Assembly (NCBI GenBank): GCA_052035915.1
Contig: JBPOHE010000007.1
Location: 1-60,613 of the forward strand
Length of the DNA: 60,613 nt
Direction: 5' to 3'
Source of the DNA: Pseudomonadota bacterium
GTDB lineage: Bacteria > Pseudomonadota > Gammaproteobacteria > Chromatiales > Chromatiaceae
This document shows, one piece after another, positions 2 to 60,230 of the stretch. How positions within the stretch are numbered: the stretch's first letter is position 1; every line of letters begins with the position of its first letter. The notes beneath the pieces are model-generated. The model made no database searches and was not told the origin of the DNA. It saw nothing but the letters and a program-made list of their open reading frames with translations. A program made the translations under genes and the position numbers.

Positions 2-319
2 GACATCGTCTCAGCCGCCGAGTTTTTGAAGGTCCACCCACAGACTCTCGGACGCCTCGCCCGTTCTGGCGAGGTCCCAGCCTCTCGCATTGGTCGCGCC
101 TGGGTGTTCCTGGAGGATGATCTTGTCACCTTTCTGCGATCGCGCTACTTTCAGCCTGGGCAGGCGCCAGCAACGGCGACTGGAGAAAAACGATGCTCTA
201 CAAACGGAATGGATCGGAGACTTGGTGGACAAGATTCACCCCGCCAGGTGGAACAGAAATACGGCGCTCTACTCGCACTACCGATAAACGGCAGGCGCAG
301 GAGTACGAAGACAAGCTGA
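2..319 (+). CDS. excisionase/AlpA-type helix-turn-helix DNA-binding protein (5' end off-window)
   Basis: ORF is open from the window edge. AAEFLKVHPQTLGRLARSGEVPASRIGRAWVFLEDDLVTFLRSRY fits the excisionase-family HTH pattern (..IPA.KIGR.W.F...L..WL). It lies directly upstream of the integrase. The 127-nt overlap with int is unusually long, so the true 3' end is uncertain. Confidence 0.55.
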   Translation, partial: DIVSAAEFLKVHPQTLGRLARSGEVPASRIGRAWVFLEDDLVTFLRSRYFQPGQAPATATGEKRCSTNGMDRRLGGQDSPRQVEQKYGALLALPINGRRRSTKTS

Positions 320-1242
320 GGTCGGAATACTGGCGGATACGGCAACTCGGCGAGCGTCCAAGGCACACCTGGCCGGAAGCCGTGGTCCGGTGGCTTGAGG
401 AGCAGCCGCCAGGAAAGCCGAGCCTGACTGACGACAAGGCCCGGCTGCGATGGATGGACCCGTGGTTGGGACAAAAACGGCTCGATGAGATCGGGCGGGA
501 CCTGATCGACCGCATGACCAGGACGCGCAAGGCCGAGGGGGTAGCCAATGCCACATGCAACCGAATGCTGGAAGTGTTGCGTGCCATCCTACGGCGAGCG
601 CATAGGGAGTGGGGGTGGATTGATACCATTCCAGCGGTGCGCTTACTGCCGGAGCCAACCAGGAGGATACGGTGGATTACCAGAGAAGAAGCGGACAAGC
701 TCTTGGCCGAACTGCCCGAGCATCTGGCGGAGATGGTGCGGTTCAGCCTCGCCACCGGCCTGCGGGAGGCCAATGTCACCGGCCTGGAGTGGTCACAGGT
801 CGACCTCTCGCGCCGGGTAGCCTGGATACATGCTGATCAGGCCAAAGCGCGTCAACCAATCGGAGTGCCGCTGAACGCGGAGGCGGTGGTGGTGCTGCGG
901 CGCCAGGCAGGGAAGCACCAGACGCGGGTATTCACCTACTGCGGGTCTCCGGTTCTGAAAGCCGGGACCCGGGCGTGGAGACTGGCTATGCAGCGGGCCG
1001 GAATCACAGGATTCCGCTGGCATGACCTTCGGCACACATGGGCGAGCTGGCATGTGCAGGCCGGGACACCGTTGCATGCGCTCCAGGAACTTGGTGGCTG
1101 GCACAGCTATGAGATGGTGTTGAGGTACGCGCACTTGGCCCCAGAGCACCTGGCGGCGCATGCTGAAAAACTGTCTCGACCGCGCGTTTTGGACGCGACC
1201 CGGACAAATTCCGGTACATCATCGGTGGTCATCCAAAAATGA
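193..1242 (+). CDS. tyrosine-type site-specific recombinase (phage integrase family)
   Basis: 349-aa ORF. N-terminus MLYKRNGSETWWTRF is typical of phage integrases. The C-terminal catalytic region is FRWHDLRHTWASWHVQAGTPLHALQELGGWHSYEMVLRYAHL (H-x-x-R ... Y). It ends 42 nt from the 3' end of tRNA-Arg. Confidence 0.9.
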   Translation: MLYKRNGSETWWTRFTPPGGTEIRRSTRTTDKRQAQEYEDKLRSEYWRIRQLGERPRHTWPEAVVRWLEEQPPGKPSLTDDKARLRWMDPWLGQKRLDEIGRDLIDRMTRTRKAEGVANATCNRMLEVLRAILRRAHREWGWIDTIPAVRLLPEPTRRIRWITREEADKLLAELPEHLAEMVRFSLATGLREANVTGLEWSQVDLSRRVAWIHADQAKARQPIGVPLNAEAVVVLRRQAGKHQTRVFTYCGSPVLKAGTRAWRLAMQRAGITGFRWHDLRHTWASWHVQAGTPLHALQELGGWHSYEMVLRYAHLAPEHLAAHAEKLSRPRVLDATRTNSGTSSVVIQK

Positions 1243-3101: not shown

Positions 3102-4283
3102 TCAGCCGTTACAGCCGACAACCTTGAACTCCACCCGCCTGTCGATGGCGTCGCGCTCATCGTTAGTACCTGTGCCGATGATGTTCTCCGTATAGCCCAG
3201 GCCCTCGGTGCGGATCTTTCTGGAACTCTCACTGGCCTCGGCCCGCAGGAGTTCCATCAATCGCTCGGCCCGCTTGAGCGAGAGCTTTTTATTATGCTCC
3301 TCGCTTCCCGAACGGCTGGCATGGCCCACGATGGTGATGCAGGAACCCGATTCCGCGATCCTTTTGGCGATCTGACGCATCCAGATCGAATATTCCGGCA
3401 GTTTGTTGTTCTTGAAAAAGTCGGTCTTGTTGACCTCGAAGAGGAATTTCACGCTGATATTCCCGGCCTGCAACCCCAACTTGGTCAGGCTGGCGAAGGC
3501 CTCTTCCGCCTCCGGCATCATTCCCAGCCGATAGAAGCATTGATAGAGTCCCGAATAGGTCTTCATCACCTGTCCATCGTCCCGTTCCGCCGCCTTGGCG
3601 AACAACCCCAGTGCCCGCCGATAATCATTCTTGTCATAGGCCGCGCTGGCCTCGTCCAGCAAGGCATTGGTGGCCAGGGTATCGAAATATTCCCTGTTCG
3701 CCATGCTGCCAGCCGCCGCCCGGGCGGTGGCGATCAGGGCATCCACCCGTTTGTCTTTGATATACATGGGGCTGTCCCGATACATGGGGGTGGGCTCGAA
3801 CTCCAACTTGGCATTGGAGATCCAGGCATCCGAATGGGCCACCACCTGGCCCGATTTGGTATTCACGATGGAGACCGTCAAGTGGGGCAACTTGGCGGCC
3901 TCGCCCCGATAGTGTTCCAGTTGCATGATGCCGCTGACGACATAGGCGGCCCTGGCAAGGTTCTCCGAGGTCATCTCCTGCAATAGGAAGCGGGGCATCT
4001 TCATCCGTGCCTGGGCCGAGATCAGTTTCTCGATGTTGCGGCTGGTGCTGGTAACCTCGCCGGTATCGGCATCGATCACCGGATCAATGACAAAAACCGC
4101 CTCCTGTTCCTTCAACTTTTCCATCAGGCTGTGCTGCTCGCTGACCTGACGGAACAGATCATCCGCCATGATGCGCACCGCCGCCTCGAACGGCAGCGGC
4201 GTGGGGCGGTACCCCCGGGGGGAGACACAGGCCGACAGGATCAGAAACAGCATCAACAAGAGAGGCAATTTATAGGTTTTCAT
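3102..4283 (-). CDS. OmpA-family lipoprotein with TPR-like middle region
   Basis: Start chosen at MKTYKLPLLLMLFLILSAC (lipobox L-S-A-C). The C-terminal OmpA-like domain is TIVGHASRSGSEEHNKKLSLKRAERL...RRVEFKVV. The middle region is helical-repeat (YDKNDYRRALGLFAKAAE...). Alternative ATGs lie at 4289 and 4298. Confidence 0.8.
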   Translation of the reverse strand: MKTYKLPLLLMLFLILSACVSPRGYRPTPLPFEAAVRIMADDLFRQVSEQHSLMEKLKEQEAVFVIDPVIDADTGEVTSTSRNIEKLISAQARMKMPRFLLQEMTSENLARAAYVVSGIMQLEHYRGEAAKLPHLTVSIVNTKSGQVVAHSDAWISNAKLEFEPTPMYRDSPMYIKDKRVDALIATARAAAGSMANREYFDTLATNALLDEASAAYDKNDYRRALGLFAKAAERDDGQVMKTYSGLYQCFYRLGMMPEAEEAFASLTKLGLQAGNISVKFLFEVNKTDFFKNNKLPEYSIWMRQIAKRIAESGSCITIVGHASRSGSEEHNKKLSLKRAERLMELLRAEASESSRKIRTEGLGYTENIIGTGTNDERDAIDRRVEFKVVGCNG

Positions 4284-4408
4284 TTCCATGGTCCGCATGA
4301 CTTCAGAGTGTTGTTCAGGCATCAAGGTAGAGAGGGAACTCAGAGTTTGGGAAAATTTCTGCTGCGCTTGCCAATACTTGGTCGCTCGCGAGGATTTTTC
4401 ACCAACTC

Positions 4409-5611
4409 TCAGTTTCCACATTCGCGACGGTATTCTCCGGCGCCAATCATTCCATCCTGGAAGCGCTCCAATAAGCCCCGACAGCGTGCCGACATTCCAC
4501 CCGCAGACGCTTTCGGCTGAGCAGCGGTGACGAGGGGAGCGGGTTTGAATCTCGGCTGAGCCTGGGAGACGGCCTTCACCGCCGGCTTGGATTGCGCCAC
4601 CATCGTTTCCGGCGCCTTGGATTTTGCTTTTTCCCCAGCCCCGGCGATGGGCTGGGGGGCAAGCGGCTTCGCGGCTACCGAGGGGGGCAAGGGGGCCGTA
4701 GGGGGTGTCGGAGATACAGTCGGAGTCACGGGCTGTGTCTCGATTTTCGCCAGAGCACTACAGCCGGCGAAGCAGAATTCCCCTTTCAACGAGGTGTTCT
4801 CCCAGGGCACCTGGCCGCCCTGGCTCTCCTCGACCACGGCCTCCCGCACCGACTTGAACATGGCCTCCACCGTCAGGCCGGGTTGGGCCAGGAAACGCAA
4901 CAGGTGCTTGGTATAGAGCCCGTTCGCACCGCCACCATCGGCGGCCACACCGCCCGGGGCCGTGGCATAGGCGATGAGAGACCCCACAGGTCCGCTCAGG
5001 GCGGTCAGACCCCTGTTGGTACCGCTGCGAAAGCCTTTGAAGGGATTATCCCGACAGGCATCCAGGATGAGGATGGTAACCCGGGTTCCCGCCTGTTCCG
5101 CCGCTTCGAAGACCACCCCCACATCGAGGGCGCGGTTGCGGAGTTCGGTCTTGCTGGCAATACGGGCCTGCACCGGGATCAGATAATTGTTGCCATCCGC
5201 CTGCACGCCATGGCCGGAATAGTAGAACAACCCGACGCTGTCCTTCCCGAGTCGCCGCCCGAACTCGCGCACGGCCTCTTCCATGCCGGACTGATCCGCA
5301 TTCTCGCGATAGATGACCTGGAAGCCCAGTGTTTCCAGCACCACCTTCAGGGCACGGGCATCATTGACGGGATTTCGCAACGGCGATTCTTCGTAGGTCT
5401 GATTGCCGATCACCAGGGCCAGTCGTTGCTCTTCCTGCACCCGCTTGAAGCCCCGGGTTTCACTGGGGATCGGCGCCGTCGGGGCCTGGTTTCCTTCGGC
5501 GCCAAAGATCGGTTTTGACAGGATCGCACCCAGAACGGTCAGCAACAATCCTGCCCACATCCACTTGTTCGGTCTATCCAGGGGACCGGCCATCCAACCC
5601 GCGAGATTCAA
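4409..5611 (-). CDS. caspase-family (peptidase C14) protein with N-terminal signal/anchor and Pro/Ala-rich C-terminal tail
   Basis: The His-Cys dyad context is conserved: LFYYSGHGVQADGNNYLIP and ILILDACRDNPF. The hydrophobic N-terminus is WMWAGLLLTVLGAILSKPIFGA. The C-terminal 120 aa are low-complexity P/A/K-rich. Confidence 0.8.
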   Translation of the reverse strand: MNLAGWMAGPLDRPNKWMWAGLLLTVLGAILSKPIFGAEGNQAPTAPIPSETRGFKRVQEEQRLALVIGNQTYEESPLRNPVNDARALKVVLETLGFQVIYRENADQSGMEEAVREFGRRLGKDSVGLFYYSGHGVQADGNNYLIPVQARIASKTELRNRALDVGVVFEAAEQAGTRVTILILDACRDNPFKGFRSGTNRGLTALSGPVGSLIAYATAPGGVAADGGGANGLYTKHLLRFLAQPGLTVEAMFKSVREAVVEESQGGQVPWENTSLKGEFCFAGCSALAKIETQPVTPTVSPTPPTAPLPPSVAAKPLAPQPIAGAGEKAKSKAPETMVAQSKPAVKAVSQAQPRFKPAPLVTAAQPKASAGGMSARCRGLLERFQDGMIGAGEYRRECGN

Positions 5612-6292: not shown

Positions 6293-8425
6293 TCAGTCCA
6301 GTCGCTCCCATACCGTGAGTTCGGCCAGGCTGTGCTGGAACTTGCGTTTGGTCTCCCGGATCACGAAGGGGACATCCCTGGGTTCACCGACGAGACGGAA
6401 CCGCCGGCCGAGGATCTCGCTCATGGCGTCCAGGGTGGTCAGATTCTCCCCGTCCTTTTTGAAGCCGCCGATCCATTCGTCGCGCTCGGTGTGCTCGATC
6501 AGCCAGGTGTAGGGGGAACTGATCACCAGCAGACCGCCCGGGCGGAGACGTTCGTGGATGCCGGCCAGGAATCGGCGCGGACTGTAGAGCCGATCGATCA
6601 GATTACCAGCGAAGATAAGGTCATAGTCGGCGTAGATCGGCTTGAGATTGCAGGCATCGGCCTGGAAGAACTCGACCCTGGATTCGCTGCCCACCAGTCC
6701 CGTCTCGCTCAGGCGGCTTTCGTGGTAGGACACCAGCTCTCCCTCCTCCGGCAACACATACTGGATGTAGCCCTTGGATTTCATCTCCTCGGCGATGCGG
6801 ATGAAACGCGCCGAAAAATCCAGACCCGTAACCCGGGCGAAGCCGGTCGCCAGCTCGAAGCTGGTGCGTCCCAGGGCACAGCCTATGTCCAACGCCCGCT
6901 CCCGAGGGCGATCCCGCATCAGCTCGAGGCAGAGGCGGGCACATTCCCGCGGATAATTGGCGACGCCGAAATACTCCCGGCCCCAGTGCAACTCGCAATA
7001 CTGGGCCACCAGCACATCGGTCTCGTAATAGTCGCTACGGACCCTGACCTGATGCTCCGACTCCAGATAACGAAATCCGGCATGCTGGAAAAAATGCCGC
7101 CGGAAGGCATAGCGCGCATCCTTGGTCGCCTCGTTGCCGGTGGAGATCCAGGAACCGCCCTTGATCAGGTTGTGCTTGGTGTCGAAGGTCGGGGTGGAAA
7201 AGTCGTCGTAGAGGGGATGCACCCGGAAACCCGGAAAGCCGTTGATGGGGGTCTCGGTCCACTGCCAGACATTACCGACGACATCGTAAAAAGGTCCCTG
7301 GGGAAACTCGTCCACCGGACAGGCCGAGGCCCAGTGTTCGAGATTGATATTCCCCGGCGCGCCCCGCCAGCCGTCCACATCCGGTAGGCCGCTGAGTTCC
7401 CGCAGGCGATACCACTCCTCCTCGGTGGGCAGCCGGATCGGCTTGTCCCGGCGCGCGCCGAACCAGTTGCAGAAGGCCTTGGCCTCCAGATAGTTGACCT
7501 CAACCGGCCAATTCCAGGGCATGGGGATTTCCTCCAGCATCAGCCGCAGACGCCAATCGCCAGTCGGCTGGGGGCGCCAGAACAGGGGATGCTCGGCTTG
7601 GCGATAGCCGCGCCAGGCCCAACCTTCCTCGGTCCACCAACGGGATTCGCGATAGCCGCCATCCTCGACAAAACCCAGGTATTCGGCATTGGAGACCAAA
7701 TAACGACCGGCTCGGAAGGCCGCTATCTCCTGTTCCAGTTGGCCGTATTCGTTGTCCCAGCCGTAGAAGGGGTGATCCTTGGCCTTGCCGAGCCGGAGGA
7801 TTCCGGCGGGCACCTCGACCAAGTCATTCGGCGGTGCCTCGCCGACCTTGGGACAGACGCGCCAGAAAGGATCCGGGCGCAGCCATTCCAAGGGCAACTG
7901 CCGGATGAGCACGGAGGAGGTTTCGAGGTGGATGCGCTCGTGCTCGATACCCATCATGATGGCCCAGAACGGCGAGTCCCAATCGATGGGCAGACTCAAG
8001 GGTAATTCCCGGATGACCCGGTCCAGGGTTTGACGCACCTCTTGCCGATAGGCCCAGACCTCGGCCACCGAGGGCCAGTCGTAATGGGCCTCGTTGAGAT
8101 CGTCCCAGGACATCTCGTCCACCCCTACCGCGAAGATGGACTCGAATCTCGGGTTGATACGCTCGGACAGCCGCTTCGCCAGCACCAGTTTGTTGATAAA
8201 AAACACCGCGGTGTGACCGAGGTAGAAAATGAGCGGGTGACGCAGGAGATCCGCCTTGCGATAGTAGGCCTCATCCCTGGCCAGGGTGGCGAAGAGCCGT
8301 TCGTAGATATCGAAGCTGGCGTGGAAATAGCGGCGGATGCTTTCCCGCTTGGCGTCGGGATCTCCCGAACGCAGGTCGGGCGTATAGGCGGGTTCGAGGT
8401 CTAATGACATGATCAATTCTCGCAA
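6293..8425 (-). CDS. ovoA: 5-histidylcysteine sulfoxide synthase / 4-mercaptohistidine N1-methyltransferase (ovothiol biosynthesis)
   Basis: 710 aa with the three-part OvoA architecture. It has a DinB-like N-terminus (HPLIFYLGHTAVFFINKL), an FGE-sulfatase-like middle (GNVWQWTETP) and a C-terminal class I SAM methyltransferase (ALDIGCALGRTSFELA). Confidence 0.85.
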   Translation of the reverse strand: MRELIMSLDLEPAYTPDLRSGDPDAKRESIRRYFHASFDIYERLFATLARDEAYYRKADLLRHPLIFYLGHTAVFFINKLVLAKRLSERINPRFESIFAVGVDEMSWDDLNEAHYDWPSVAEVWAYRQEVRQTLDRVIRELPLSLPIDWDSPFWAIMMGIEHERIHLETSSVLIRQLPLEWLRPDPFWRVCPKVGEAPPNDLVEVPAGILRLGKAKDHPFYGWDNEYGQLEQEIAAFRAGRYLVSNAEYLGFVEDGGYRESRWWTEEGWAWRGYRQAEHPLFWRPQPTGDWRLRLMLEEIPMPWNWPVEVNYLEAKAFCNWFGARRDKPIRLPTEEEWYRLRELSGLPDVDGWRGAPGNINLEHWASACPVDEFPQGPFYDVVGNVWQWTETPINGFPGFRVHPLYDDFSTPTFDTKHNLIKGGSWISTGNEATKDARYAFRRHFFQHAGFRYLESEHQVRVRSDYYETDVLVAQYCELHWGREYFGVANYPRECARLCLELMRDRPRERALDIGCALGRTSFELATGFARVTGLDFSARFIRIAEEMKSKGYIQYVLPEEGELVSYHESRLSETGLVGSESRVEFFQADACNLKPIYADYDLIFAGNLIDRLYSPRRFLAGIHERLRPGGLLVISSPYTWLIEHTERDEWIGGFKKDGENLTTLDAMSEILGRRFRLVGEPRDVPFVIRETKRKFQHSLAELTVWERLD

Positions 8426-8608: not shown

Positions 8609-9604
8609 ATGCGCACCCGTCGTCTCGGTAACACGGACCTCCAGCTTTCCTGCATCGGCCTGGGAACCTGGGCCATCGGTGGTCCCTGGGACTTCGGTTG
8701 GGGGCCGCAATCGGACGAGGATTCGATCTCCACCATACGTCGGGCGCTGGACCTGGGCGTCAATTGGATCGACACCGCCCCCGTCTACGGTCTCGGGCAC
8801 GCCGAACTGGTCGTGGGCCGGGCCATCAACGGACGACGCGACAAGGTCATCATCGCCACCAAATGCGGTCTGGTGTGGGACGAATGCCCCCAGCGCAAGT
8901 TATGCGGCCGACTCAAGGCGGAAAGCATCAAGCGGGAGGCGGAAAACAGCCTGCGACGGCTGGGTATCGAGACCATCGACCTCTATCAGGTCCACTGGCC
9001 GAATCCCGAACCCGATATCGAAGAGGCTTGGTCGGCCATCGGGGAGCTGATCGCCGAGGGCAAGATCCGTTATGCCGGGGTCGCCAACTTCTCCGTGGCC
9101 CAGATGGAACGACTTCAAGCCATCCACCCCATCGCCTCCCTGCAACCGCCTTACAGCCTGCTGGATCGGGCCGTCGAGAGCGAATTGCTGCCCTATTGCG
9201 TAGCCCAGGGTATCGGCATCGTGGCCCACGGCCCCATGGCCTATGCCCTCTTGACCGGGAAGTTCAGCCACTCCTATATCGCCACCCTGCCCGCCGACGA
9301 CTGGCGCCGTCGGGGCGGTTGCTTCCAGGAACCCGAACTCAGCGCCAACCTGGCGTTCGTCGACAAGCTCAAGACCCTCGCCGAACGCCGCGGCCATCAG
9401 GTGGCCCATCTCGCCATCGCCTGGGTGCTGCGCCGACCCGAGGTGACCGCCGCCATCGTCGGCGCGCGTCGCCCCCAGCAGATCGAACAAACCCATGCCG
9501 CCGCCTCTCTGGATTGGCTGCCGGAAGATCTGGAGACCATTGAGGCCTGGCTGGCCGAGCGGGATCGGATCATCAGCACCCATATAGCCTGCTCCCCGGT
9601 GTGA
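8609..9604 (+). CDS. aldo/keto reductase
   Basis: 331 aa with typical AKR motifs: LGTWAIGG, GVNWIDTAPVYG, IDLYQVHWP. Confidence 0.9.
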   Translation: MRTRRLGNTDLQLSCIGLGTWAIGGPWDFGWGPQSDEDSISTIRRALDLGVNWIDTAPVYGLGHAELVVGRAINGRRDKVIIATKCGLVWDECPQRKLCGRLKAESIKREAENSLRRLGIETIDLYQVHWPNPEPDIEEAWSAIGELIAEGKIRYAGVANFSVAQMERLQAIHPIASLQPPYSLLDRAVESELLPYCVAQGIGIVAHGPMAYALLTGKFSHSYIATLPADDWRRRGGCFQEPELSANLAFVDKLKTLAERRGHQVAHLAIAWVLRRPEVTAAIVGARRPQQIEQTHAAASLDWLPEDLETIEAWLAERDRIISTHIACSPV

Positions 9605-9754
9605 TACCATTTCTTGATAGGTATTATCGATATTCGTAGGCTGGTGTTGAGGCGCGAAGCGCTGAAACCCAGCTTCTGAGTAGCTGGGATTCGCTTCGCT
9701 CATCGCCAGCCTACCCCATGACTTTCAGGCGGATAAACTAATAGGAAATGGTAT
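9604..9754. repeat. MITE-like repeat family A, copy 1 (151 bp)
   Basis: Perfect 10-bp terminal inverted repeats (ATACCATTTC ... GAAATGGTAT). An internal long hairpin is based on GCGAAGCGCTGAAACCCAGCT; it is partly deleted in this copy. Near-identical to 14639-14792 in the same orientation. Confidence 0.85.
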
Positions 9755-9970
9755 GAGATCCTCTTCCGATCCCTGATCAACACTGGACACCAGCACGCGA
9801 CCGGGGGTGAAGGGGAAGCTGATAACAATGTTTATGTACTAATGATATTTTGTTGAATATTTTTATGTAGCAATGCTTCTACCGCCCATGCCCGGGGCCT
9901 TTTGGGTCGATAAGCGGGTTGTCGTCGCCGGCTCGTCCTTCTCGGACTCTATCCAGCATGAGAGAACACC

Positions 9971-10640: not shown

Positions 10641-10692
10641 ATTAAACATGCGTGCGATTAGGCTACGCCAATCGCACCTACGGCCCTTTAAT
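10641..10692 (-). repeat. attC-like / REP-like imperfect palindrome downstream of TA cassette 1
   Basis: Minus-strand reading: TATTAAAGGGCCGTAGGTGCGATTGGCGTAGCCTAATCGCACGCATGTTTAAT. The toxin stop codon lies inside the first arm. A related copy with conserved arms and a variable centre is at about 59545-59600. Confidence 0.4.
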
Positions 10693-10972
10693 ACACCTCG
10701 TCGTGGGTGCCAATATCATGCAAAATGATGACTTCACATCCTGTTTTCTCATCGATTTCAATGGAGAAAACAATGCGGCAATCATAGCCACGGGAGCAGG
10801 CCCACAATCCCAGCAGAGCACCGCTAAGTTTATGCGTTCACGGGGCAGGCGCAAATACATCCGCCTGCATTCGCCGAAGCACCTCATCAATATAATCTTG
10901 CAACTTGGGAGTCTGTTTTCCAAATTTCCGATAGGCTCGCCGAAATCTTGGCGTGATAACCAACAGCCTCAT
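10688..10972 (-). pseudogene. RelE/YafQ-family toxin gene interrupted by an in-frame TGA (codon 45)
   Basis: Hand translation: MRLLVITPRFRRAYRKFGKQTPKLQDYIDEVLRRMQADVFAPAP*THKLSGALLGLWACSRGYDCRIVFSIEIDEKTGCEVIILHDIGTHDEVY*. The C-terminal half is the classic RelE/YafQ signature. The stop is at 10838-10840. The ATGA start/stop overlap with the antitoxin is preserved. Confidence 0.75.
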
Positions 10973-11199: not shown

Positions 11200-11303
11200 C
11201 GTTTCCACAATCTCCTTGCTTTCATTACAGCCGTAGAAGGTACGCGATGCGTACCCTACGAGGCTCTCCTGCGTCACGCATGCGTTCGGGTGGGATCATG
11301 AGT

Positions 11304-11359
11304 TCTAACGCCTGCCTCAGCCGCGAGCGTAGCGAGTCGTCTGGAGGCGCATGTTAGGA
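11304..11359 (-). repeat. attC-like recombination-site candidate
   Basis: Minus-strand reading: TCCTAAC-ATGCGCCTCCAG...CTGAGGCAGGC-GTTAGAA. This has an inverse-core-like YYTAAC and a core-like GTTAGR, with imperfectly paired inner arms. It is 56 nt long and lies between the two TA cassettes. Confidence 0.5.
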
Positions 11360-11477: not shown

Positions 11478-11729
11478 TCAGTAGATTTCTCGACGATGGC
11501 CTATTGCAATAACGATCACAACTAACTGTTCGTCGTGGATTTCGTAGATGACTCTGAAATCGCCAATTCGGATTCGCCACGCATCTCTACCTGTGAGTTT
11601 CTTGCTGCCGACTGGTCTTGGATTGTGGGAAAGCGCTTTTACCTGATCAGCAATCTCTGCTCGACGGACTTTATCAATTTTTGCAAGGGACTTCTGCGCG
11701 CTTCGAGTGATTGAGATCGATTAGCTCAT
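11478..11729 (-). pseudogene. RelE/ParE-family toxin gene with TAA at codon 3
   Basis: Hand translation: MS*SISITRSAQKSLAKIDKVRRAEIADQVKALSHNPRPVGSKKLTGRDAWRIRIGDFRVIYEIHDEQLVVIVIAIGHRREIY*. This is the canonical RelE/ParE pattern (RIRIGDYRVIYEI...IGHR.EIY). The stop is at 11721-11723, and there is no downstream ATG/GTG/TTG near the N-terminus. Confidence 0.75.
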
Positions 11730-11932
11730 GAGCTGACATCAGTATCTATCTCGTTCAGTGCCTGATCAAAAGGGATTATCTCGTCGCTAGTGAGTTTAGC
11801 TTCGTCGTAAGCCTTTATGTCTTCGAGTTCCTCTATGGCGCTGAGGATTTCCCGCCATTCATTAATGGGTAAGACTACGGACTTAGGAGTCTGATTAGAG
11901 TCGACAATGTATTCTGGATGAAGAATGTTCAT
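11726..11932 (-). CDS. type II antitoxin (Phd/YefM-like by pattern)
   Basis: 68 aa: MNILHPEYIVDSNQTPKSVVLPINEWREILSAIEELEDIKAYDEAK... The ATGA overlap with the toxin start is present. Confidence 0.7.
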   Translation of the reverse strand: MNILHPEYIVDSNQTPKSVVLPINEWREILSAIEELEDIKAYDEAKLTSDEIIPFDQALNEIDTDVSS

Positions 11933-11984: not shown

Positions 11985-12040
11985 AAAAAACACAGTGTTG
12001 CCCGACATTTTATAGAAGATGTCGGGCACAGGTGCCCGAC
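11985..12040 (-). terminator. tandem hairpins plus T-run downstream of the two-gene operon
   Basis: On the minus strand, right after the TAG at 12041, come two hairpins. They are GTCGGGCAC-CT-GTGCCCGAC and TGCCCGACAT-cttctataaa-ATGTCGGGCA, followed by ACACTGTG-TTTTTT. Confidence 0.5.
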
Positions 12041-13159
12041 CTACCGGGCTGTCTTCACTCTATGTTTTTCGTAGGCTTCCATTTTGTATCTTTCTAAAGA
12101 CTCAATAACCAGTTTACTGACTGTGCTTCTGGTTAATCCTTCTTCATTTGCTTCTAATCTGAGCATCGAAAGATTAAGCGTCAACTCGCCCCCCGCAGAC
12201 TCATCCTTATCAGAAAACTCAAATAGTATTCTGCATGTTCCAGAGCAATTATCGCCTTCAAACTCATAATCACATTGAAGCCCGAACAATCGGATATACG
12301 GATGAATGGATTTATCACTGACGAAAAATGTCGAGTGAAGCCCCTGTCCCTTCATCTTCATGTCTTCGATCTTATCCTTCATCCACGCAATATTCTGCGG
12401 CGGGTTAGCAACGCTGTGATCTGGTGAAAAATGAATGTCCCTGGTGTCAACAAAGCGCAGCATTGAGTGACTTACGTTTTGGGTGAGATCATTCATAAAT
12501 TGTACGCGTGATTCATTCGTGAAGTCTGAATACCTGATTATTGTTACGCCGACACTTTGTTTGATGTGCCCTTCGCTTTTGAAGTGCTTTATCAAAGCAC
12601 TTGAGACTTTGTTTCCGAAGTCGATTGTTTCTGGTGCGGTATGGCTTAGCGAAATGTTTAAGGACTTACCATCGTTGCTTTTCCGTATTTCAACACGGCC
12701 CCCATGTGTGACTGTGTTTTCTCCCCAGTTCTTAACTGGATCACGTCTATCAATCTCGAAATCCATGTAGATGTGATCTGGATTATCATTTGATGCAGTA
12801 AAATTTGACATACTTGAAAGACTGAATACACCAAACTGGTCATTCAGAAGAGTCTCGTAGTCAGCCATATCTGGCAAAGACTCAAGCAAGTTGGATTCAG
12901 AATCCCAGCTAATAGTGCGAGTTTTAGATTTTGGCGATTCCTCTTTTGTCCTATAGCTCTCGCGCAAGTCCACGTACTCAAAGGGAGACAGCCCGGTCTT
13001 GATGAGAATGGGGCCTAGAACTTCCTTCTGATCTGACCCTGTAAATACCCCTCTTGCGCGCAAAACGTTTTTTAATTCGGCGTTCTTAACCTTTGTCTGG
13101 CCAATTAGCTGGCGCAAAAAATCCCTAGTAGGAAGCAAGACCTCTTCGTTGTTATTCAT
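12041..13159 (-). CDS. hypothetical protein B (372 aa), second gene of AT-rich operon
   Basis: Clean 372-aa ORF with a start ATG inside ATGAATAA, an 8-nt overlap with the upstream gene. Sampled lines are 32-50% GC, against about 63% in flanking core genes. I recognise no catalytic or nucleotide-binding motif. Confidence 0.8.
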   Translation of the reverse strand: MNNNEEVLLPTRDFLRQLIGQTKVKNAELKNVLRARGVFTGSDQKEVLGPILIKTGLSPFEYVDLRESYRTKEESPKSKTRTISWDSESNLLESLPDMADYETLLNDQFGVFSLSSMSNFTASNDNPDHIYMDFEIDRRDPVKNWGENTVTHGGRVEIRKSNDGKSLNISLSHTAPETIDFGNKVSSALIKHFKSEGHIKQSVGVTIIRYSDFTNESRVQFMNDLTQNVSHSMLRFVDTRDIHFSPDHSVANPPQNIAWMKDKIEDMKMKGQGLHSTFFVSDKSIHPYIRLFGLQCDYEFEGDNCSGTCRILFEFSDKDESAGGELTLNLSMLRLEANEEGLTRSTVSKLVIESLERYKMEAYEKHRVKTAR

Positions 13160-14102
13160 TATTCAAGCTCCTGTAGTCTGGCCGAAAGCTAGCTACTTTT
13201 ATCCGGGTAAAGATATCGCTCTCAAAACCTGTGGCAGCCCTCTTGACTGCATCACCATGACTAGACTCAACATAATTAGGAAATAGAAACAGCAACGTGC
13301 AACTCATGTCTTGAGTGTATTCTTTGGCTGCTTGGATTAGCCTGCGCAGAGAGTCTTGCGCAAAACCTTCTATGGTAGACAGACAGAAAATATCCTGATC
13401 ATGCCGGGACTGTGCCTTAATGATTAGCGGAATCAAAGGTGAGGTCAGAAATTCAAGCGGACATACCTTTCCATATCTCGATATGGTTTTGTCAACATAA
13501 CTTAGTGAAGTCTCAGGATAATAAAAGTGCAGGCGATCGGAGTCGTACTCATGTCTCAAATACTGCACGGTGTCGAATATAAAGTTTATTCTCTGATTAT
13601 CAACCACATGAAACGACTCAAAGCTCCAATCGGAATCAAGTTGTGAGTTTGCAATTTTTGATACGACATCATCATATGTTTCTTCGTTACTCGATAGCCA
13701 GAACAATACCCCGGAATCCCTACTTTTCGTTGTTCGCCCCAACAATTCCTGCTGTTGCTTTTTTAACTCTGAATGTTTGTAACACTCCAAGGTTTCGACT
13801 AAGTCCTTGGCGTGCGATTTGAAAGTCGACTTTGGATTGTTTTCGTACGGGTTTTGTGAATGCTTAACAGATATTACCGCGCTTTCGGCAGTCGAGCCTT
13901 CAAGTGGGCTTCTATAGCAGTACAAATAGTCAATTCCATGTGTTTCTCTTTTTCCAGTCTTTGACCCTTCACTGGCATGTTTGCTTGGCTTTCTACATGG
14001 CAGTTCTTGCCCAGATAAAACGCCTTCCCACCCCAATAAATGGAAGAAATTGCCAACGATATTCTCGCCAATTTCTCCAATTTTTTTAGATTTTTCACCC
14101 AT
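13152..14102 (-). CDS. hypothetical protein A (316 aa) with PD-(D/E)xK-like (Mrr/DUF4365-like) N-terminal region
   Basis: The N-terminus is KKIGEIGENIVGNFFHLLGWEGV ... THGIDYLYCYRSP ... AVISVKHS. This resembles the helix (GE..E) / beta (G-I-D) / beta (S-V-K) core of restriction-endonuclease-fold proteins (E13, D58, S78-x-K80). I recognise nothing in the C-terminal 180 aa. AT-rich. Confidence 0.8.
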   Translation of the reverse strand: MGEKSKKIGEIGENIVGNFFHLLGWEGVLSGQELPCRKPSKHASEGSKTGKRETHGIDYLYCYRSPLEGSTAESAVISVKHSQNPYENNPKSTFKSHAKDLVETLECYKHSELKKQQQELLGRTTKSRDSGVLFWLSSNEETYDDVVSKIANSQLDSDWSFESFHVVDNQRINFIFDTVQYLRHEYDSDRLHFYYPETSLSYVDKTISRYGKVCPLEFLTSPLIPLIIKAQSRHDQDIFCLSTIEGFAQDSLRRLIQAAKEYTQDMSCTLLFLFPNYVESSHGDAVKRAATGFESDIFTRIKVASFRPDYRSLNNE

Positions 14103-14180
14103 TGCAAGTTCCTTTCACCAATCTGCGGGTTGGATTTTTATGCATAACATGTAATCGACGACATCGTCTTCCTACCAAAA

Positions 14181-14198: not shown

Positions 14199-14499
14199 CA
14201 ACCCTTACCCCAATGGTCCTCCATCAGCTCCCACCCTGGATCCCAACCCCGGGGCTACGGCATTTTCGTAGCCTGACTTCCACAACCGCGGATGAGGTCG
14301 CCATATCCATCCAGCCTGATTGACCTCGTTGCGCCGATCGATCTCCCAATATTCCACCCGAGCTGTACGCCACGCAGGCCGGGCACTTTATGGGATGCCC
14401 GACATTTTCCATTGAATCCCTGGACAAGGCCAGGCTTTGGCCCAACCTTCTACATCACTCCCTAACAGCTGAGATAACCTTGAAGAGTCAGGTTTTGGC

Positions 14500-14625
14500 G
14501 TTCCCGGGCATGGGCGGTTTAGCCCGATTTTTCCTTCTCCTAGAGAGAACAATGCCCCATCATGAATGGGCATATGTTCTCTTTAGAAGAACGAAGAATG
14601 GCCGTTTGGGGCCCATGCCCGGAAC
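14500..14625. repeat. MITE-like repeat family B copy (paired TGTTCTC/GAGAACA palindromes)
   Basis: Terminal inverted repeats GTTCCCGGGCATGGGC ... GCCCATGCCCGGAAC. The core is TTCTCCTAGAGAGAACAATGCC...GCATATGTTCTCTTTAGAAGAAC. Confidence 0.7.
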
Positions 14626-14638
14626 CTGGAAGGGCCTC

Positions 14639-14792
14639 ATACCATTTCTCGATAGGTATTATCGATATTCGTAGGCTGGTGTTGAGGCGCGAAGCGCTGA
14701 AACCCAGCTTCTCAGTAGCTGGGTTTCAGCGCTTCGCTCATCGCCAGCCTACCCCATGGCTTTCAGGCGGATAAACTAATAGGAAATGGTAT
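14639..14792. repeat. MITE-like repeat family A, copy 2 (154 bp)
   Basis: Same TIRs as copy 1. It carries the full 21-bp-stem hairpin GCGAAGCGCTGAAACCCAGCT-tctcagt-AGCTGGGTTTCAGCGCTTCGC. It is in direct orientation relative to 9604-9754. Confidence 0.85.
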
Positions 14793-14861
14793 CAGCGACT
14801 AGCTCGGCCATCCTTTGCCGAGGTTCCCTGAAACACCCGAGCCCTTCCCCGCGACCAAGGC

Positions 14862-16409
14862 TCAAGGATTCACCGCCAAGGGCGCCTCGAAGTGTTGGGT
14901 GGTGAAGACCTCGAAGGCGGCGCCTTCCTTCCAGGCGTCCTCCGGCAGACCAGCCTTGCGCGCCAGATGAGAGAGGGTTTGTTCCCGATTCCAACCCTGT
15001 TCCCGGGCCACTTCGGGGAGAAAAACCGCGCTCCGACCTTCCTTGTGCAGGATGATGCCGTGCACACCGGGCTGGAAGTCCTCGACTGAGGGGATGGACT
15101 GGGGCGGGCTGAGCACGCTGACGGTTAGTTCCAGCTCTTTCAATTCCTCCGGCTGCACCGGCGGGAAGCGGTAATCCTGCTGAGCGGCGTTGAGGCCGTT
15201 GAGGATCACTGCCCGATACAGGGGCTCCTTGGGCAGGATGTAGCCGATGCAACCGCGCAGCTCGCCATGTTTCTTCAGGGTGACGAAGGCCCCCGAGGGT
15301 TGACGACCGGCCTCCGGCATCTCGGCCAGGAGTCTTTCATAGTCCGCTGCGATGCCGCTTTGGGGTAGCACGGCATCGATGACCGCGATCCGGGCCAATC
15401 GATGCAGCCAGGGCAGCAGTTCCGGAGTCGGGGCCGTCTCGGCGCGCTTGGGCGCGGCGGCCTTGGACAGAGGGGCCGGATCATAGACGCCGATGCTGAG
15501 GTAACTGACCGAATGGTCCCATTGCTGGGTCAAGGCGCCGCTGGTGTCGTATTGGATCAGCTCGACCTTGGAGCCGGGATTGAGCAGATGGACCAGGATC
15601 AGCAAAGGGGAGAGACCGCAGGCGGTAATGCCGGTACGCCTATGGTATTCCGCCAGGCCTGGGGCATCCTGTTTGGTGATAAATTCAAAGGCCCCCAGAT
15701 CGAGGTTCCGCAGGCGCTCGGGCAATTGCTGATCCGGCGGGAAAGGCAGATAGTCGTATCTGGGACCGTAGTGGGTGAAGTCGCCGGAGATCAGCAACAG
15801 GCTGGTGTCGTCCAACAAAGGGCGCAGCAACTCGGCGGCAGCGGCATAGTCCTGTTCCTCCATGACACCGACGAGTACGGGCAGGAGTTGCCAGCCCGGG
15901 GCCAGACTGCGTTGCAGGAAGGGAAGCTGGATCTCCAGGCTATGTTCGCCCAGGCGGATCGCCTCGTCTCCATGCACCAGGGGTGATGCCCGCAAGGTGG
16001 CGATCGCCGCCGTATCCAGGGGGATGCTGCCCAGAGGAGTGGCATAGTGACTGGCTTCTGGTATCGCCAGACCACGAAAGCCACCGCCATGGGCCGGTCC
16101 AACGGCGATCACCCGTTTCAGTGCCCGCCCCTGGAGCTGGATATACCCCTTGGCCGCGGTGGCGCCTGAATATTGATACCCGGCATGGGGACTCACCAAT
16201 GCCCGCAGCTCGGTGGGCGGCGGGCTGGGGGCCGGTCCGGCCTGCTTGAGCAACTGGTCGATAATCTCCTGGAGTTGGGCCGGCTCCTGCGGATACCAGT
16301 AGCCGGCGATGGCCGAGGGCCGGATGGAGTCGGCGTAGACCGTACCCAGTCCCCAGAACAACCCCAGACAGAGTCCCAGAAAACCCCAGCGCATTGGATC
16401 TCGCCTCAT
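14862..16409 (-). CDS. AmmeMemoRadiSam system fusion protein: Memo-like (protein B) + AMMECR1 (protein A) domains
   Basis: The N-terminal half is Memo-like (AGYWYP...LVSPHAGYQYSG...SLEIQLPFL...SGDFTHYG). The C-terminal half is AMMECR1 (GAFVTLKKHGELRGCIGY...LTVSVLSPP...GIILHKEGRSAVFLPEV). Start set at the ATG at 16409, preceded by GGGGAGGGGGAG. The predicted N-terminus MRRDPMRWGFLGLCLGLFWGLGTVYADS looks like a signal peptide. Confidence 0.8.
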   Translation of the reverse strand: MRRDPMRWGFLGLCLGLFWGLGTVYADSIRPSAIAGYWYPQEPAQLQEIIDQLLKQAGPAPSPPPTELRALVSPHAGYQYSGATAAKGYIQLQGRALKRVIAVGPAHGGGFRGLAIPEASHYATPLGSIPLDTAAIATLRASPLVHGDEAIRLGEHSLEIQLPFLQRSLAPGWQLLPVLVGVMEEQDYAAAAELLRPLLDDTSLLLISGDFTHYGPRYDYLPFPPDQQLPERLRNLDLGAFEFITKQDAPGLAEYHRRTGITACGLSPLLILVHLLNPGSKVELIQYDTSGALTQQWDHSVSYLSIGVYDPAPLSKAAAPKRAETAPTPELLPWLHRLARIAVIDAVLPQSGIAADYERLLAEMPEAGRQPSGAFVTLKKHGELRGCIGYILPKEPLYRAVILNGLNAAQQDYRFPPVQPEELKELELTVSVLSPPQSIPSVEDFQPGVHGIILHKEGRSAVFLPEVAREQGWNREQTLSHLARKAGLPEDAWKEGAAFEVFTTQHFEAPLAVNP

Positions 16410-16657
16410 CTCCCCCTCCCCTTTTGGTTCAAGATTCATCCTCCGGCAGCGCCCGATAATAGGCCGCCTCCGGATACCCGTAGGGTGCGCAAAGCGCACC
16501 AGAATGGTGGGCGATGCTTCGACTTCGCTCAGCACAGGTGCCCACCCTAGCGTTCCCGGGCACCACAGGCACAGCGGCGCCCAGCACCACCCCGGCACAC
16601 AGCCACAAGAAATACCGTCGATCCGCCTCCCATTCATCTGTGTTCATACTCTCCTCC

Positions 16658-26415: not shown

Positions 26416-26532
26416 CCGGGCCTGGGCTGAAAAGCGCTGGTTTCTGTTCTCATTAGGAGAACAATGCGGCCTGTAGAAAGGCATTGTTCTCGATTGGAGA
26501 ACAAAAAACCGGGCCAAAGCGCCCTGGCCCGG
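26416..26532. repeat. MITE-like repeat family B copy (best-preserved)
   Basis: Ends are CCGGGCCTGGGC ... GCCCTGGCCCGG. The two palindromes are TGTTCTCATTAGGAGAACA (26445-26463) and TTGTTCTCGATTGGAGAACAA (26484-26504). It lies between convergent genes. Confidence 0.75.
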
Positions 26533-26812
26533 AAGCGTCAAAAGACGAACTGGCCGGCCATGAAGGTCGCCGCCAGGCCCGCCTGGCCGGCGGCGAACCT
26601 GATGGCTCCAACGACTCCGGCTCCGTCCCGACCTCCCAGGGCTCATCTTCCCAGGCCAGCCAGGCCTCCATCCGCTGTTGTCGCGCGTCCCTCTCCAATT
26701 GGCGCCGATCCCTGTGCGCCCCGCCCTTGCGCAGCAAGGGCGATTTGGCCGCCAGATTACGTATCTTCACCCCTTTCATACTTTCTCTCCCAAGGCCACT
26801 GAAAGCCTTCAC

Positions 26813-52567: not shown

Positions 52568-52666
52568 CGGGAAGGAAACCGCGTAATCGGATGGAGGCGG
52601 ACGGGGGCCACGAAGGTGTGGCTGAGAAAAAGACTCAGCAGGAATCGGTATTCGAGTTCGGGTGTT

Positions 52667-52784
52667 CCGGGCATCGACGGCCAATGGCCGATTTCCGTTC
52701 TAATACAGAGAACAATATATCAATATCTCGCGGTATTGTTCTCTAATGGAGAACAAAAACCGGCCCAACACAGCCAGGCCCGGG
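52667..52784. repeat. MITE-like repeat family B copy
   Basis: Ends are CCGGGCATCGACGG...CCAGGCCCGGG. The core is CAGAGAACAATATAT...TTGTTCTCTAATGGAGAACAA. Confidence 0.7.
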
Positions 52785-52906
52785 AGGCTCTCCCAACCAC
52801 CAGGGGCCAAATCCAAATCTGATTGGCCAGTTATTTCAGCGAGAGAGGGATGTGCCGTCACTCCCCTCGCCCGTTTGCGGGAGAGGGGAGCTGGACGGTT
52901 ACAAGA

Positions 52907-59260: not shown

Positions 59261-59616
59261 TCCCCGAAAAGGGAAAAAGGAAACAGATCAAAGGGAAGAA
59301 GCCAATATCCTGGCCAGACGAAAACCCCAGGGGGAAGTCCCAGCGGCGTAGGTTGGGTTGACACCGTCAACCCAACATTCCAAGCAGCGCCGGGGAGAAA
59401 TGTTGGGTTGCGCAATACGCAACCCAACCTACGATACTTGTTAGGCCATTTTCAGGTTTCATAATTTAGCTTGGTCCCTTTTCAACTTTTCCCAAACGGA
59501 TCAGCTCGCGTAGCTCCGATTAGCGACAGCGTAATCGGAGGAATGTAGCTTTCATGCGTGCGATTACACTAGGGTAATCGCACCTACGGTCCTTTGGTGG
59601 TTGCACGTGCAAGCCT

Positions 59617-59685
59617 CCTAACACGTTCAAATTAACCGGCCTGCGCGGCTTTTCGCGCAGGTCCGATTGAATGCTGGGTTAGGGC
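59617..59685 (-). repeat. attC-like site at the 3' end of the Mrr-like cassette
   Basis: Minus-strand reading: GCCCTAAC-CCAGCATTCAATCGGACCTGCGCG-aaaag-CCGCGCAGGCCGGTTAATTTGAACGT-GTTAGGA. The TAA stop of the ORF lies inside the CCCTAAC inverse-core-like box. GCCCTAA is complementary to the TTAGGGC that begins the cassette at 60236-60242. Confidence 0.6.
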
Positions 59686-60230
59686 ACAGCGGGTTCATCG
59701 ATAAGAGCATGGCGCAAATACTCCGGATGTTGGCGAGAGGCTACAGAATGCCTGTTACCGTCGATGAGCCAACCGATGACTGGCTCAATGTTGGCCCACG
59801 GCGGTGGTTCGCTCGGGCCGCCAAGGGACTTTGTGAAATAGCTTGTGCGCCCTTCGGCCAATTGGACGGTTGCGATGCCGTGAGCCTTCGCAAACTCCAG
59901 AGCACCTGATTGAAAGCCAGAGCTAGAAAAGACCATGCCCTTCTGGGCACCAACCGACAATAGCTTGCTGTGAAGGCTCTGAATGACTTCGCGCTTCACC
60001 GGATTTTTGTAGTGCTTACACTCGACAAGCACCAGAAACTCAGCATCAAGAGCGCCGAAGCGAACGGTGACATCGATTTCGTAGTCTCCGTCGTGCCCTT
60101 CGACAACCTCGCGGTGTTGAGAGTCGTATCCGTGTAGGTTGAGGCCAAGAACATCAAGCATTGCCTTTACCTCAAGCTCAAATTGCTCAGGTGTAAGTTG
60201 GATCGGTGGATATTGGCCAAGGCGCGGCAT
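59679..60230 (-). CDS. Mrr-type (PD-(D/E)xK) restriction endonuclease domain protein
   Basis: 183 aa. FELEVKAMLDVLG...GDYEIDVTVRF...FLVLVECKHYKNPVKREVIQ...GMVFSSSGFQSGA fits the Mrr_cat core (D ... E-x-K). There is no adjacent methyltransferase. Confidence 0.75.
   Translation of the reverse strand: MPRLGQYPPIQLTPEQFELEVKAMLDVLGLNLHGYDSQHREVVEGHDGDYEIDVTVRFGALDAEFLVLVECKHYKNPVKREVIQSLHSKLLSVGAQKGMVFSSSGFQSGALEFAKAHGIATVQLAEGRTSYFTKSLGGPSEPPPWANIEPVIGWLIDGNRHSVASRQHPEYLRHALIDEPAVP

What the first reader, a model, noticed from the sequence alone, without database searches (positions are those of the whole stretch)
12041..14102. AT-rich, translationally coupled two-gene operon (316 aa + 372 aa) with a nuclease-fold-like N-terminus: candidate undescribed defence / abortive-infection module
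Seen in the sequence:
- Two clean minus-strand ORFs overlap by 8 nt (ATGAATAA).
- Sampled lines are about 32-50% GC against about 63% in neighbouring core genes, which points to horizontal acquisition.
- Protein A opens with GEIGENIVGNFFHLLGW...HGIDYLY...AVISVKHS. This lines up with the alpha-beta-beta core of PD-(D/E)xK (Mrr/DUF4365-like) proteins, giving E13, D58 and S78-x-K80, with Ser in the usual Glu/Gln position.
- I recognise nothing in the last about 180 aa of protein A or in any of protein B. There is no P-loop, helicase, methylase, TIR, SIR2 or HEPN signature.

Context is typical of defence islands:
- two TA cassettes lie immediately downstream;
- attC-like sites and MITEs flank the locus;
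- an Mrr-type nuclease cassette sits elsewhere in the window.

I cannot match the pair to any named system from memory.
Basis: partly seen in the sequence, partly recalled or inferred. Interest (0 to 1): 0.85.

Follow-up and report, generated by a model that had tools for sequence, protein, structure and literature searches.

The report
Known GAPS4 anti-phage nuclease pair
The two overlapping genes are an intact copy of GAPS4, an already published two-protein bacterial anti-phage system that destroys DNA when it senses DNA breaks, so the finding is real but not new.

The parts
13152..14102 (-). gapS4a: 316-aa GAPS4a, a divergent PD-(D/E)xK DNase subunit. Motif H55-G56-I57-D58 ... S78-V79-K80, plus conserved E13.
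12041..13159 (-). gapS4b: 372-aa GAPS4b, the non-catalytic partner. The GAPS4 preprint predicts with AlphaFold3 that two copies form the ring of the a2b2 complex. It has an N-terminal helical domain followed by two beta-sheet/helix modules.
13152..13159 (-). 8-nt overlap ATGAATAA (B start codon and A stop codon), with AGGAG 8 nt upstream of the B start: translational coupling.
   Evidence: Read directly from the sequence. Short overlaps are the rule in 59 adjacent homologous pairs.
14103..14148 (-). Leader of gapS4a with an AAAGGAA ribosome-binding site. Nucleotide homology with the 81%-identical pair in L005 ends at 14148, next to GTTATGC (14146-14140).
12021..12050 (-). Fixed recombination junction (12050) followed by the hairpin GTCGGGCAC-ct-GTGCCCGAC (12040-12021). 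The last two codons and the stop codon of gapS4b (gcc cgg tag) lie in sequence shared with contigs that carry other cargo.
   Evidence: L076/L082, L084 and L091 all lose homology with the window at exactly 12050. The hairpin is flagged as terminator-like.
14639..14795 (.). MITE copy 2 (about 155 nt). Terminal inverted repeats TACCATTTC.../...GAAATGGTA and a 3-bp target duplication TCA.
9604..9757 (.). MITE copy 1, inserted at the stop codon of the aldo/keto reductase gene with a 3-bp target duplication TGA. It is absent from the otherwise 99% identical L076 (empty site GTGTGA|GATCC).
11478..11932 (-). Neighbouring cassette, not part of GAPS4: RelB-like antitoxin (11726-11932) and a ParE toxin frame (11478-11729) with TAA at codon 3 (11723-11721).
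   Evidence: Pfam RelB-like 7.8e-08. ParE_toxin 9.6e-15. Stop codon seen. An intact 83-aa ParE is present in L076 and L084.
11303..11359 (-). attC-like imperfect palindrome between the two TA cassettes: TCCTAAC-ATGC-GCCTCCAG ... CTGAGGC-AGGC-GTTAGAA.
   Evidence: A second copy in L076 abuts the 12050 junction. No calibrated attC model was available.

Best explanation
The locus is an intact gapS4a-gapS4b operon, a member of the published GAPS4 anti-phage defence family. By inference from the family's characterised members, the two proteins assemble into an a2b2 complex. A GAPS4b dimer forms a ring, and each GAPS4a docks on it with its PD-(D/E)xK active site (here H55/D58/S78/K80, plus E13) facing outward. 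The complex is idle until DNA breaks or linear DNA ends appear, for example during phage infection. It then degrades phage and host DNA without distinguishing them, killing the infected cell (abortive infection). Shown here: family membership, gene pairing, an intact motif, and the nuclease fold. Inferred: complex formation, the trigger, and DNase activity in this host. The operon was acquired horizontally. It occupies a variable slot between housekeeping genes, and in near-identical genomes the same junction holds other defence or TA cargo.
For: - Family models: both proteins match NCBIfam GapS4a and GapS4b over their full length, above the curated cut-offs.
- Naming: sources name the homologues GapS4a/GapS4b, with PF26115 and PF26110.
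- Motif: the published HGxD...SxK motif is present and conserved.
- Pairing: of 70 genome loci with an A homologue, 59 have B directly downstream, 2 have the genes fused and 3 have B on the same strand 0.4-2.8 kb downstream (L006, L031, L063). The 6 loci without B are contig ends or A fragments. This matches the 'tandem or fused' description.
- Experiments in the papers: both genes are required; D59A abolishes defence; SEC-MALS gives an a2b2 complex; nalidixic acid and a T6SS DNase trigger the system; host and phage DNA are degraded.
- Horizontal acquisition: 42.6% GC against 61%, and different cargo at the same junction in 99%-identical genomes.
Against: - No experiment was done on this orthologue. 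It is only about 33-42% identical to Vibrionaceae and other distant family members, and the tested proteins themselves were not aligned here.
- No convincing sigma-70 promoter was found upstream (3 sites found against 5.3 expected by chance).
- Both neighbouring TA toxin frames are interrupted by stop codons, so the island shows some decay and expression is unproven.
- PADLOC 2023 and the local Pfam copy give no hit, most likely because GAPS4 models are missing from those libraries.
Confidence: 0.93

Rival explanations
1. It is a previously undescribed two-gene defence or abortive-infection system.
For: There are no hits in PADLOC-DB 2.0.0 or the local Pfam-A copy. The exact proteins are unnamed in their source records.
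Against: Curated NCBIfam GapS4a and GapS4b models hit both proteins over their full length, above cut-off. Homologues are named and have their own Pfam families. Two papers describe the system and its mechanism.
Confidence: 0.02
2. It is a GAPS4 homologue by descent but silent or non-functional here, a decaying cargo gene pair in an eroding island.
For: Both adjacent TA toxin frames carry in-frame stop codons, and these recur in independent samples. No significant promoter was found. MITEs have been inserted on both sides.
Against: Both ORFs are full length against the family profiles. All conserved catalytic positions are intact. The coupled start/stop arrangement and both ribosome-binding sites are preserved. 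An identical copy is found in several independent sequencing runs.
Confidence: 0.08
3. The pair has a housekeeping DNA-repair or recombination role, with an RdgC-like ring and a nuclease, rather than a defence role.
Against: Foldseek does not recover RdgC and hhalign gives 0.2% probability. The low GC, the patchy distribution across phyla, the replacement by other cargo in sister genomes and the published phage-defence phenotypes of homologues all argue for an accessory defence role.
Confidence: 0.02

Closest known systems
GAPS4 (GAPS4a/GAPS4b) of Vibrio parahaemolyticus MAVP-R (WP_055466293.1/WP_055466294.1) and E. coli RiKo 2299/09 (WP_028132563.1/WP_028132564.1); Mahata et al., bioRxiv 10.1101/2023.03.28.534373 and 10.1101/2025.09.07.674715
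   Same: - Same two families by curated HMMs.
- Same gene order (a then b) with overlapping or adjacent genes.
- Same HGxD...SxK motif at the same positions (D58 here, D59 in MAVP-R).
- Same predicted PD-(D/E)xK fold.
   Different: - This is a divergent orthologue. Its closest relatives are 90% identical proteins from metagenomes and an 84% identical one in a gammaproteobacterial MAG.
- It is only about 33-42% identical to Vibrionaceae-type members.
- It is not in a GMT island. It sits in a small 5-kb slot with TA cassettes between housekeeping genes.
- It has not been tested experimentally.
Shedu (SduA) and Hachiman (HamA) PD-(D/E)xK defence nucleases
   Same: - According to the GAPS4 paper, these systems also activate a PD-(D/E)xK effector on sensing DNA ends or aberrant DNA.
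   Different: - There is no sequence-level family match.
- The partner protein differs: there is no HamB helicase and no Shedu N-terminal sensor domain.
- The catalytic motif has Ser in place of Glu/Gln.
RdgC (E. coli recombination-associated, ring-forming DNA-binding protein; PDB 2owl)
   Different: - Identity is 9% and hhalign probability 0.2%.
- Foldseek does not find RdgC.
- No member of the B alignment hits the Pfam RdgC family.
- This is a resemblance only, not membership.
Integron cassette arrays and CALINs (clusters of attC sites lacking an integrase) that carry TA and phage-defence cassettes (e.g. bioRxiv 10.1101/2024.07.02.601719)
   Same: - Small, co-oriented, low-GC genes, including TA pairs.
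- attC-like palindromes at 11303-11359 and 59616-59684.
- A single fixed junction used by at least three different upstream cargos.
   Different: - There is no integron integrase in the window. The only tyrosine recombinase (193-1242) scores far below every NCBIfam cut-off.
- GAPS4 has no recognisable attC of its own.
- My attC scan was not specific.

Membership tests
GAPS4 anti-phage system | A GAPS4a-family protein (curated model NF047933 / PF26115 PDDEXK_GAPS4) | tested here: met
   349.3 bits against a cut-off of 270, with full-length coverage. The exact protein's precomputed Pfam is PF26115.
GAPS4 anti-phage system | A GAPS4b-family protein (curated model NF047934 / PF26110 GAPS4b_N) | tested here: met
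   383 bits against a cut-off of 300, profile positions 1-355/355. PF26110 is recorded on the adjacent gene in L001-L004.
GAPS4 anti-phage system | The a and b genes in tandem on one strand, or fused (both are required) | tested here: met
   8-nt overlap in the window. Among 70 loci, 59 are adjacent, 2 are fused and 3 have B 0.4-2.8 kb downstream.
GAPS4 anti-phage system | Non-canonical PD-(D/E)xK motif HGxD...SxK at the GAPS4a N-terminus | tested here: met
   H55-G-I-D58 and S78-V-K80. H55, D58 and S78 are invariant; G56 and K80 are at least 90% conserved. The motif is as published.
GAPS4 anti-phage system | PD-(D/E)xK (restriction-endonuclease-like) fold of the GAPS4a N-terminal domain | tested here: met
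   [not shown]
GAPS4 anti-phage system | a2b2 heterotetramer with a GAPS4b ring | not testable with these tools
   No multimer prediction tool was available. Known only for the MAVP-R and RiKo systems.
GAPS4 anti-phage system | Phage protection, and non-selective DNA degradation triggered by DNA breaks | not testable with these tools
   This needs experiments. It has been shown for two homologues.
Integron cassette / CALIN | attC recombination sites bounding each cassette | tested here: inconclusive
   Good attC-like structures occur at 11303-11359 and 59616-59684, with a copy at the L076 junction. None is recognisable for the GAPS4 unit. The heuristic scan did no better than shuffled sequence.
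Integron cassette / CALIN | An integron integrase IntI next to the array (complete integron) | tested here: not met
   The only tyrosine recombinase (193-1242) is 8 kb away and has only weak Xer-like hits, far below cut-off.
RdgC family | Sequence membership (Pfam RdgC) or profile similarity | tested here: not met
   None of 26 B homologues hits Pfam RdgC at E up to 10. hhalign probability is 0.2%.
RdgC family | RdgC-like fold | tested here: inconclusive
   [not shown]
   Protein A has no Pfam hit at E up to 1. The resemblance is only at the level of the shared PD-(D/E)xK fold.

The most novel reading that the evidence does not exclude
There are two modest additions that the evidence does not exclude.

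(1) GAPS4b may be a structural relative of RdgC, a ring-shaped dimer that encircles dsDNA. That would give a physical explanation for how GAPS4 senses breaks: the b2 ring could load only onto free DNA ends and so license the outward-facing GAPS4a nucleases. The held GAPS4 papers do not mention RdgC.

(2) Here GAPS4 is not GMT-island cargo. It is one of at least three alternative cargos exchanged at a single fixed junction (window 12050) in an integrase-less, attC-like cassette array. This suggests GAPS4 also spreads as a cassette-like unit.
Probability: 0.3. Interest if true: 0.4.

Novelty: already known. Interest (0 to 1): 0.15.

Why it matters
As a discovery it matters little, because the system is named, modelled in NCBIfam and Pfam, and characterised experimentally. 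It has three practical uses:
- **Annotation lesson.** PADLOC-DB 2023 and an older Pfam copy both miss GAPS4, so loci that appear to have no database hit should also be checked against NCBIfam.
The active-site call made from sequence alone was correct.
- **Leads for GAPS4 specialists.** A natural example shows defence cargo swapped at one junction between 99%-identical genomes, and there is an unconfirmed RdgC-like fold for the sensor subunit.

Tried and rejected
- **Pfam-A (local copy) and PADLOC-DB 2.0.0 on A and B:** no hits. I treat this as a gap in those libraries, because homologues carry precomputed PF26115 and PF26110.
- **PDB sequence search with profiles of A and B:** only chance-level hits for A (sulfotransferase, E about 0.01) and none for B. 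No solved GAPS4 structure was found.
- **Home-made attC scan (RYYYAAC...GTTRRRY plus folding):** about 20 hits in the window against 0-16 in block-shuffled controls, so it is not specific and I rejected it as evidence.
- **The two 155-nt repeats as ends of a composite transposon carrying the island:** rejected. Each copy has its own 3-bp target duplication, and L076 lacks copy 1 while keeping the island sequences.
- **The 22-nt inverted repeat flanking the pair (12007-12028 / 14396-14417, 82%):** the exact core is only 10 nt, which is within chance for 6 kb. Not pursued.
- **The tyrosine recombinase at 193-1242 as an integron integrase:** not supported.
- **Look-up of the Memo-AMMECR1 protein:** not on record.
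- **Promoter scan:** nothing above chance.

Full report
**1. The observation**

The ORF list shows two minus-strand ORFs exactly as reported: A at 13152..14102 (316 aa) and B at 12041..13159 (372 aa). They share 8 nt, which read ATGAATAA on the coding strand. An AGGAG Shine-Dalgarno lies 8 nt before the B start codon, inside the end of A, and AAAGGAA precedes the A start codon. The pair has 42.6% GC, against 61.0% for the window outside 10-15 kb.

**2. What it is**

Pfam-A (local copy) and PADLOC-DB 2.0.0 (2023) gave no hit for either protein. NCBIfam gave unambiguous matches. A matches NF047933 antiphage_GapS4a at 349.3 bits (cut-off 270), residues 1-306 on profile 1-302/302. B matches NF047934 antiphage_GapS4b at 383 bits (cut-off 300), residues 9-363 on profile 1-355/355. 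In the large protein collection, sources name the homologues 'GapS4a family protein', 'GAPS4 PD-(D/E)XK nuclease domain-containing protein' and 'GapS4b family protein'. They carry precomputed Pfam PF26115 (PDDEXK_GAPS4) and PF26110 (GAPS4b_N). The local Pfam copy evidently lacks these two families.

**3. Literature**

- GAPS4 (GMT-encoded anti-phage system 4) was discovered as cargo of a Gamma-Mobile-Trio island in Vibrio parahaemolyticus. It protects E. coli against several phages (bioRxiv 10.1101/2023.03.28.534373).
- A follow-up preprint (10.1101/2025.09.07.674715) reports the following:
  - Both genes are required for defence.
  - There are 1,639 non-redundant homologues in 59 bacterial orders, with the genes in tandem or fused.
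  - GAPS4a is a divergent PD-(D/E)xK phosphodiesterase with the non-canonical motif HGxD...SxK.
  - D59A abolishes defence.
  - The complex is an a2b2 heterotetramer by SEC-MALS. AlphaFold3 predicts a ring of two GAPS4b subunits with GAPS4a docked on it and the active sites facing outward.
  - The system degrades host and phage DNA.
  - It is triggered by DNA breaks (nalidixic acid, a T6SS DNase effector).
  - It acts by abortive infection and is attenuated by phage homing endonucleases.

**4. Independent membership tests**

(a) Motif. In an alignment of 30 homologues at 32-90% identity (A1), H55, I57, D58, S78 and V79 are invariant. G56 and K80 are at least 90% conserved, and E13 is invariant. 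The window protein reads H55-G-I-D58 and S78-V-K80.

(c) Pairing. A scan of one genome per species returned 70 loci with an A homologue, spanning Gammaproteobacteria, Cyanobacteria, Bacteroidota, Campylobacterota, Desulfobacterota, Saccharibacteria and others. An HMM built from the B alignment found B on the same strand in 64 of them:
- 59 directly adjacent (gap -91 to +85 nt between stop-to-stop frames);
- 2 fused into one ORF (L067, L068);
- 3 with B 0.4-2.8 kb downstream (L006, L031, L063).

The 6 loci without B are contig ends (L057, L062, L069) or A fragments (L066, L071, L072). All defining features that can be tested computationally are met. Complex formation and activity cannot be tested here.

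**5. How it most likely works**

By inference from the tested homologues, A and B form an a2b2 complex that stays inactive until DNA breaks or ends appear. The PD-(D/E)xK sites of A then degrade DNA indiscriminately, aborting the infection. Shown here: membership, an intact motif, the fold, gene coupling and pairing. Inferred: everything biochemical.

- Foldseek does not recover RdgC.
- hhalign of the B profile against E. coli RdgC gives 0.2% probability.
- No B homologue hits Pfam RdgC.

The held GAPS4 papers do not mention RdgC. I keep this as an unconfirmed lead.

**6. Context**

- **Flanking genes.** The low-GC stretch lies between housekeeping-type, high-GC genes: an OvoA-like gene (6293-8425), an aldo/keto reductase (8609-9604), a Memo-AMMECR1 fusion (14862-16637) and a radical SAM gene. 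The rest of the window is mostly housekeeping.
- **MITEs.** Two direct copies of a 155-nt palindromic element, 95-97% identical, bracket the island (9604-9757 and 14639-14795). L076 (GCA_009612975.1) has 99% identical flanks but lacks copy 1, and so shows the empty site. Each window copy has perfect terminal inverted repeats and its own 3-bp target duplication (TGA and TCA). These are true, independent MITE insertions, not the ends of a composite element.
- **TA cassettes.** Downstream of B lie two TA cassettes. In the first, the ParE frame has TAA at codon 3 (11723-11721). In the second, the weakly YafQ-like toxin has TGA at codon 45 (10840-10838). The same interrupted versions recur in independent samples (L083, L086, L089), while L076, L084, L087 and L088 have an intact 83-aa ParE.
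- **Variable cargo at one junction.** Contigs that share the RelB cassette carry three different upstream cargos:
  - GAPS4 in the window;
  - a 571-aa AAA_21/AAA_15 ATPase whose best PADLOC matches are AriA, AriAB, Old and GajA (L076/L082);
  - a BrnT-type TA pair (L091, with the same junction in L084).

  All three lose homology with the window at the same base, 12050, where the shared sequence AGCCCGGTAG begins. That sequence supplies the last two codons and the stop codon of gapS4b. In L076 the junction is preceded by a copy of the attC-like palindrome found at window 11303-11359.
- **Mrr gene.** A similar palindrome (59616-59684) follows the Mrr_cat gene at 59679-60230.
- **Is it an integron?** The arrangement resembles an integron-type cassette array without an integrase. 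The only tyrosine recombinase (193-1242) is not an IntI. My attC scan was no better than shuffled sequence, and GAPS4 has no recognisable attC. The mechanism of exchange is therefore unresolved.
- **Size of the GAPS4 unit.** Nucleotide homology with the nearest genomic relative (L005, 81%) spans only 12058-14148. This bounds the GAPS4 unit at about 2.1 kb.

**7. Comparison and verdict**

The locus is a member of GAPS4, not merely similar to it. It differs from the founding example in its context: it is not in a GMT island, but in a small variable slot with TA cassettes. It also differs in sequence, being about 33-42% identical to Vibrionaceae-type members, while its closest relatives are 84-90% identical proteins from uncultured gammaproteobacteria. 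Mechanistically, its nearest analogues are Shedu and Hachiman, which also pair a PD-(D/E)xK effector with sensing of DNA ends or aberrant DNA.

Novelty: already known. Interest: low. The first reader's observation and active-site inference were correct, but the claim that the system is undescribed is refuted by the reader's own criterion.

Noticed in passing
window 9604-9757 and 14639-14795; empty site in L076 near 3994-4000: A 155-nt MITE with perfect terminal inverted repeats (TACCATTTC.../...GAAATGGTA) and 3-bp target duplications (TGA, TCA; a TNA-type target). Copy 1 is inserted exactly at the stop codon of the aldo/keto reductase gene and is absent from a 99%-identical genome. The parent transposase was not identified.
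   Followed up: yes
window 11478-11729 (TAA at 11723-11721) and 10685-10972 (TGA at 10840-10838), minus strand: Both toxin genes of the two TA cassettes carry in-frame stop codons, while the antitoxin genes are intact. The interrupted alleles recur in independent metagenomes (L083, L086, L089). An intact 83-aa ParE exists in L076, L084, L087 and L088.
   Followed up: partly
window 12050; L082 about 2447, L084 about 988, L091 about 535: A single fixed junction (shared sequence starts AGCCCGGTAG) in front of the RelB/ParE cassette is used by three different upstream cargos: GAPS4, an OLD/PARIS/Gabija-like AAA_21 ATPase, and a BrnT-type TA pair. In two of the three variants the upstream ORF takes its stop codon from the shared sequence.
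   Followed up: partly
window 11303-11359 and 59616-59684; Mrr_cat gene at 59679-60230 (-): There are attC-like imperfect palindromes (xCCTAAC ... GTTAGRx, with a spacer, L-box and extrahelical base). One lies between the TA cassettes and one just downstream of a small Mrr_cat restriction-endonuclease gene. No integron integrase is present in the window, which suggests a CALIN-like arrangement. This was not verified with a calibrated attC model.
   Followed up: partly
window 10647-10689 vs 59553-59595; 14493-14556 vs 26480-26543; 14502-14625 vs 52664-52785: Further short dispersed repeats and hairpins (REP-like, 70-86% identical) are shared between the island's non-coding flanks and distant intergenic sites of the contig.
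   Followed up: no
window 193-1242 (+): A tyrosine recombinase (Phage_integrase, 95.7 bits) lies at the contig start. It has only weak Xer-like NCBIfam hits, far below cut-off, and is not an integron integrase. Its target or element is unknown.
   Followed up: partly
window 3102-5611 (-): Adjacent genes encode a caspase-domain (Peptidase_C14) protein and an OmpA-domain protein. L078, a related MAG contig, lacks these two genes between the ABM gene and the cpYpsA gene, so this is a second variable spot.
   Followed up: no
A database gap: PADLOC-DB 2.0.0 (2023) and the local Pfam-A copy do not contain GAPS4 models, while NCBIfam release 20 and the precomputed Pfam annotations (PF26115, PF26110) do. 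A lack of hits in the first two libraries is not evidence of novelty.
   Followed up: yes
L006 (Thiohalocapsa sp. PB-PSB1) 6948-8349; L031 6930-9749: In two genomes the gapS4a and gapS4b genes are separated by insertions of 1.4 kb and 2.8 kb, presumably mobile elements that disrupt the operon.
   Followed up: no
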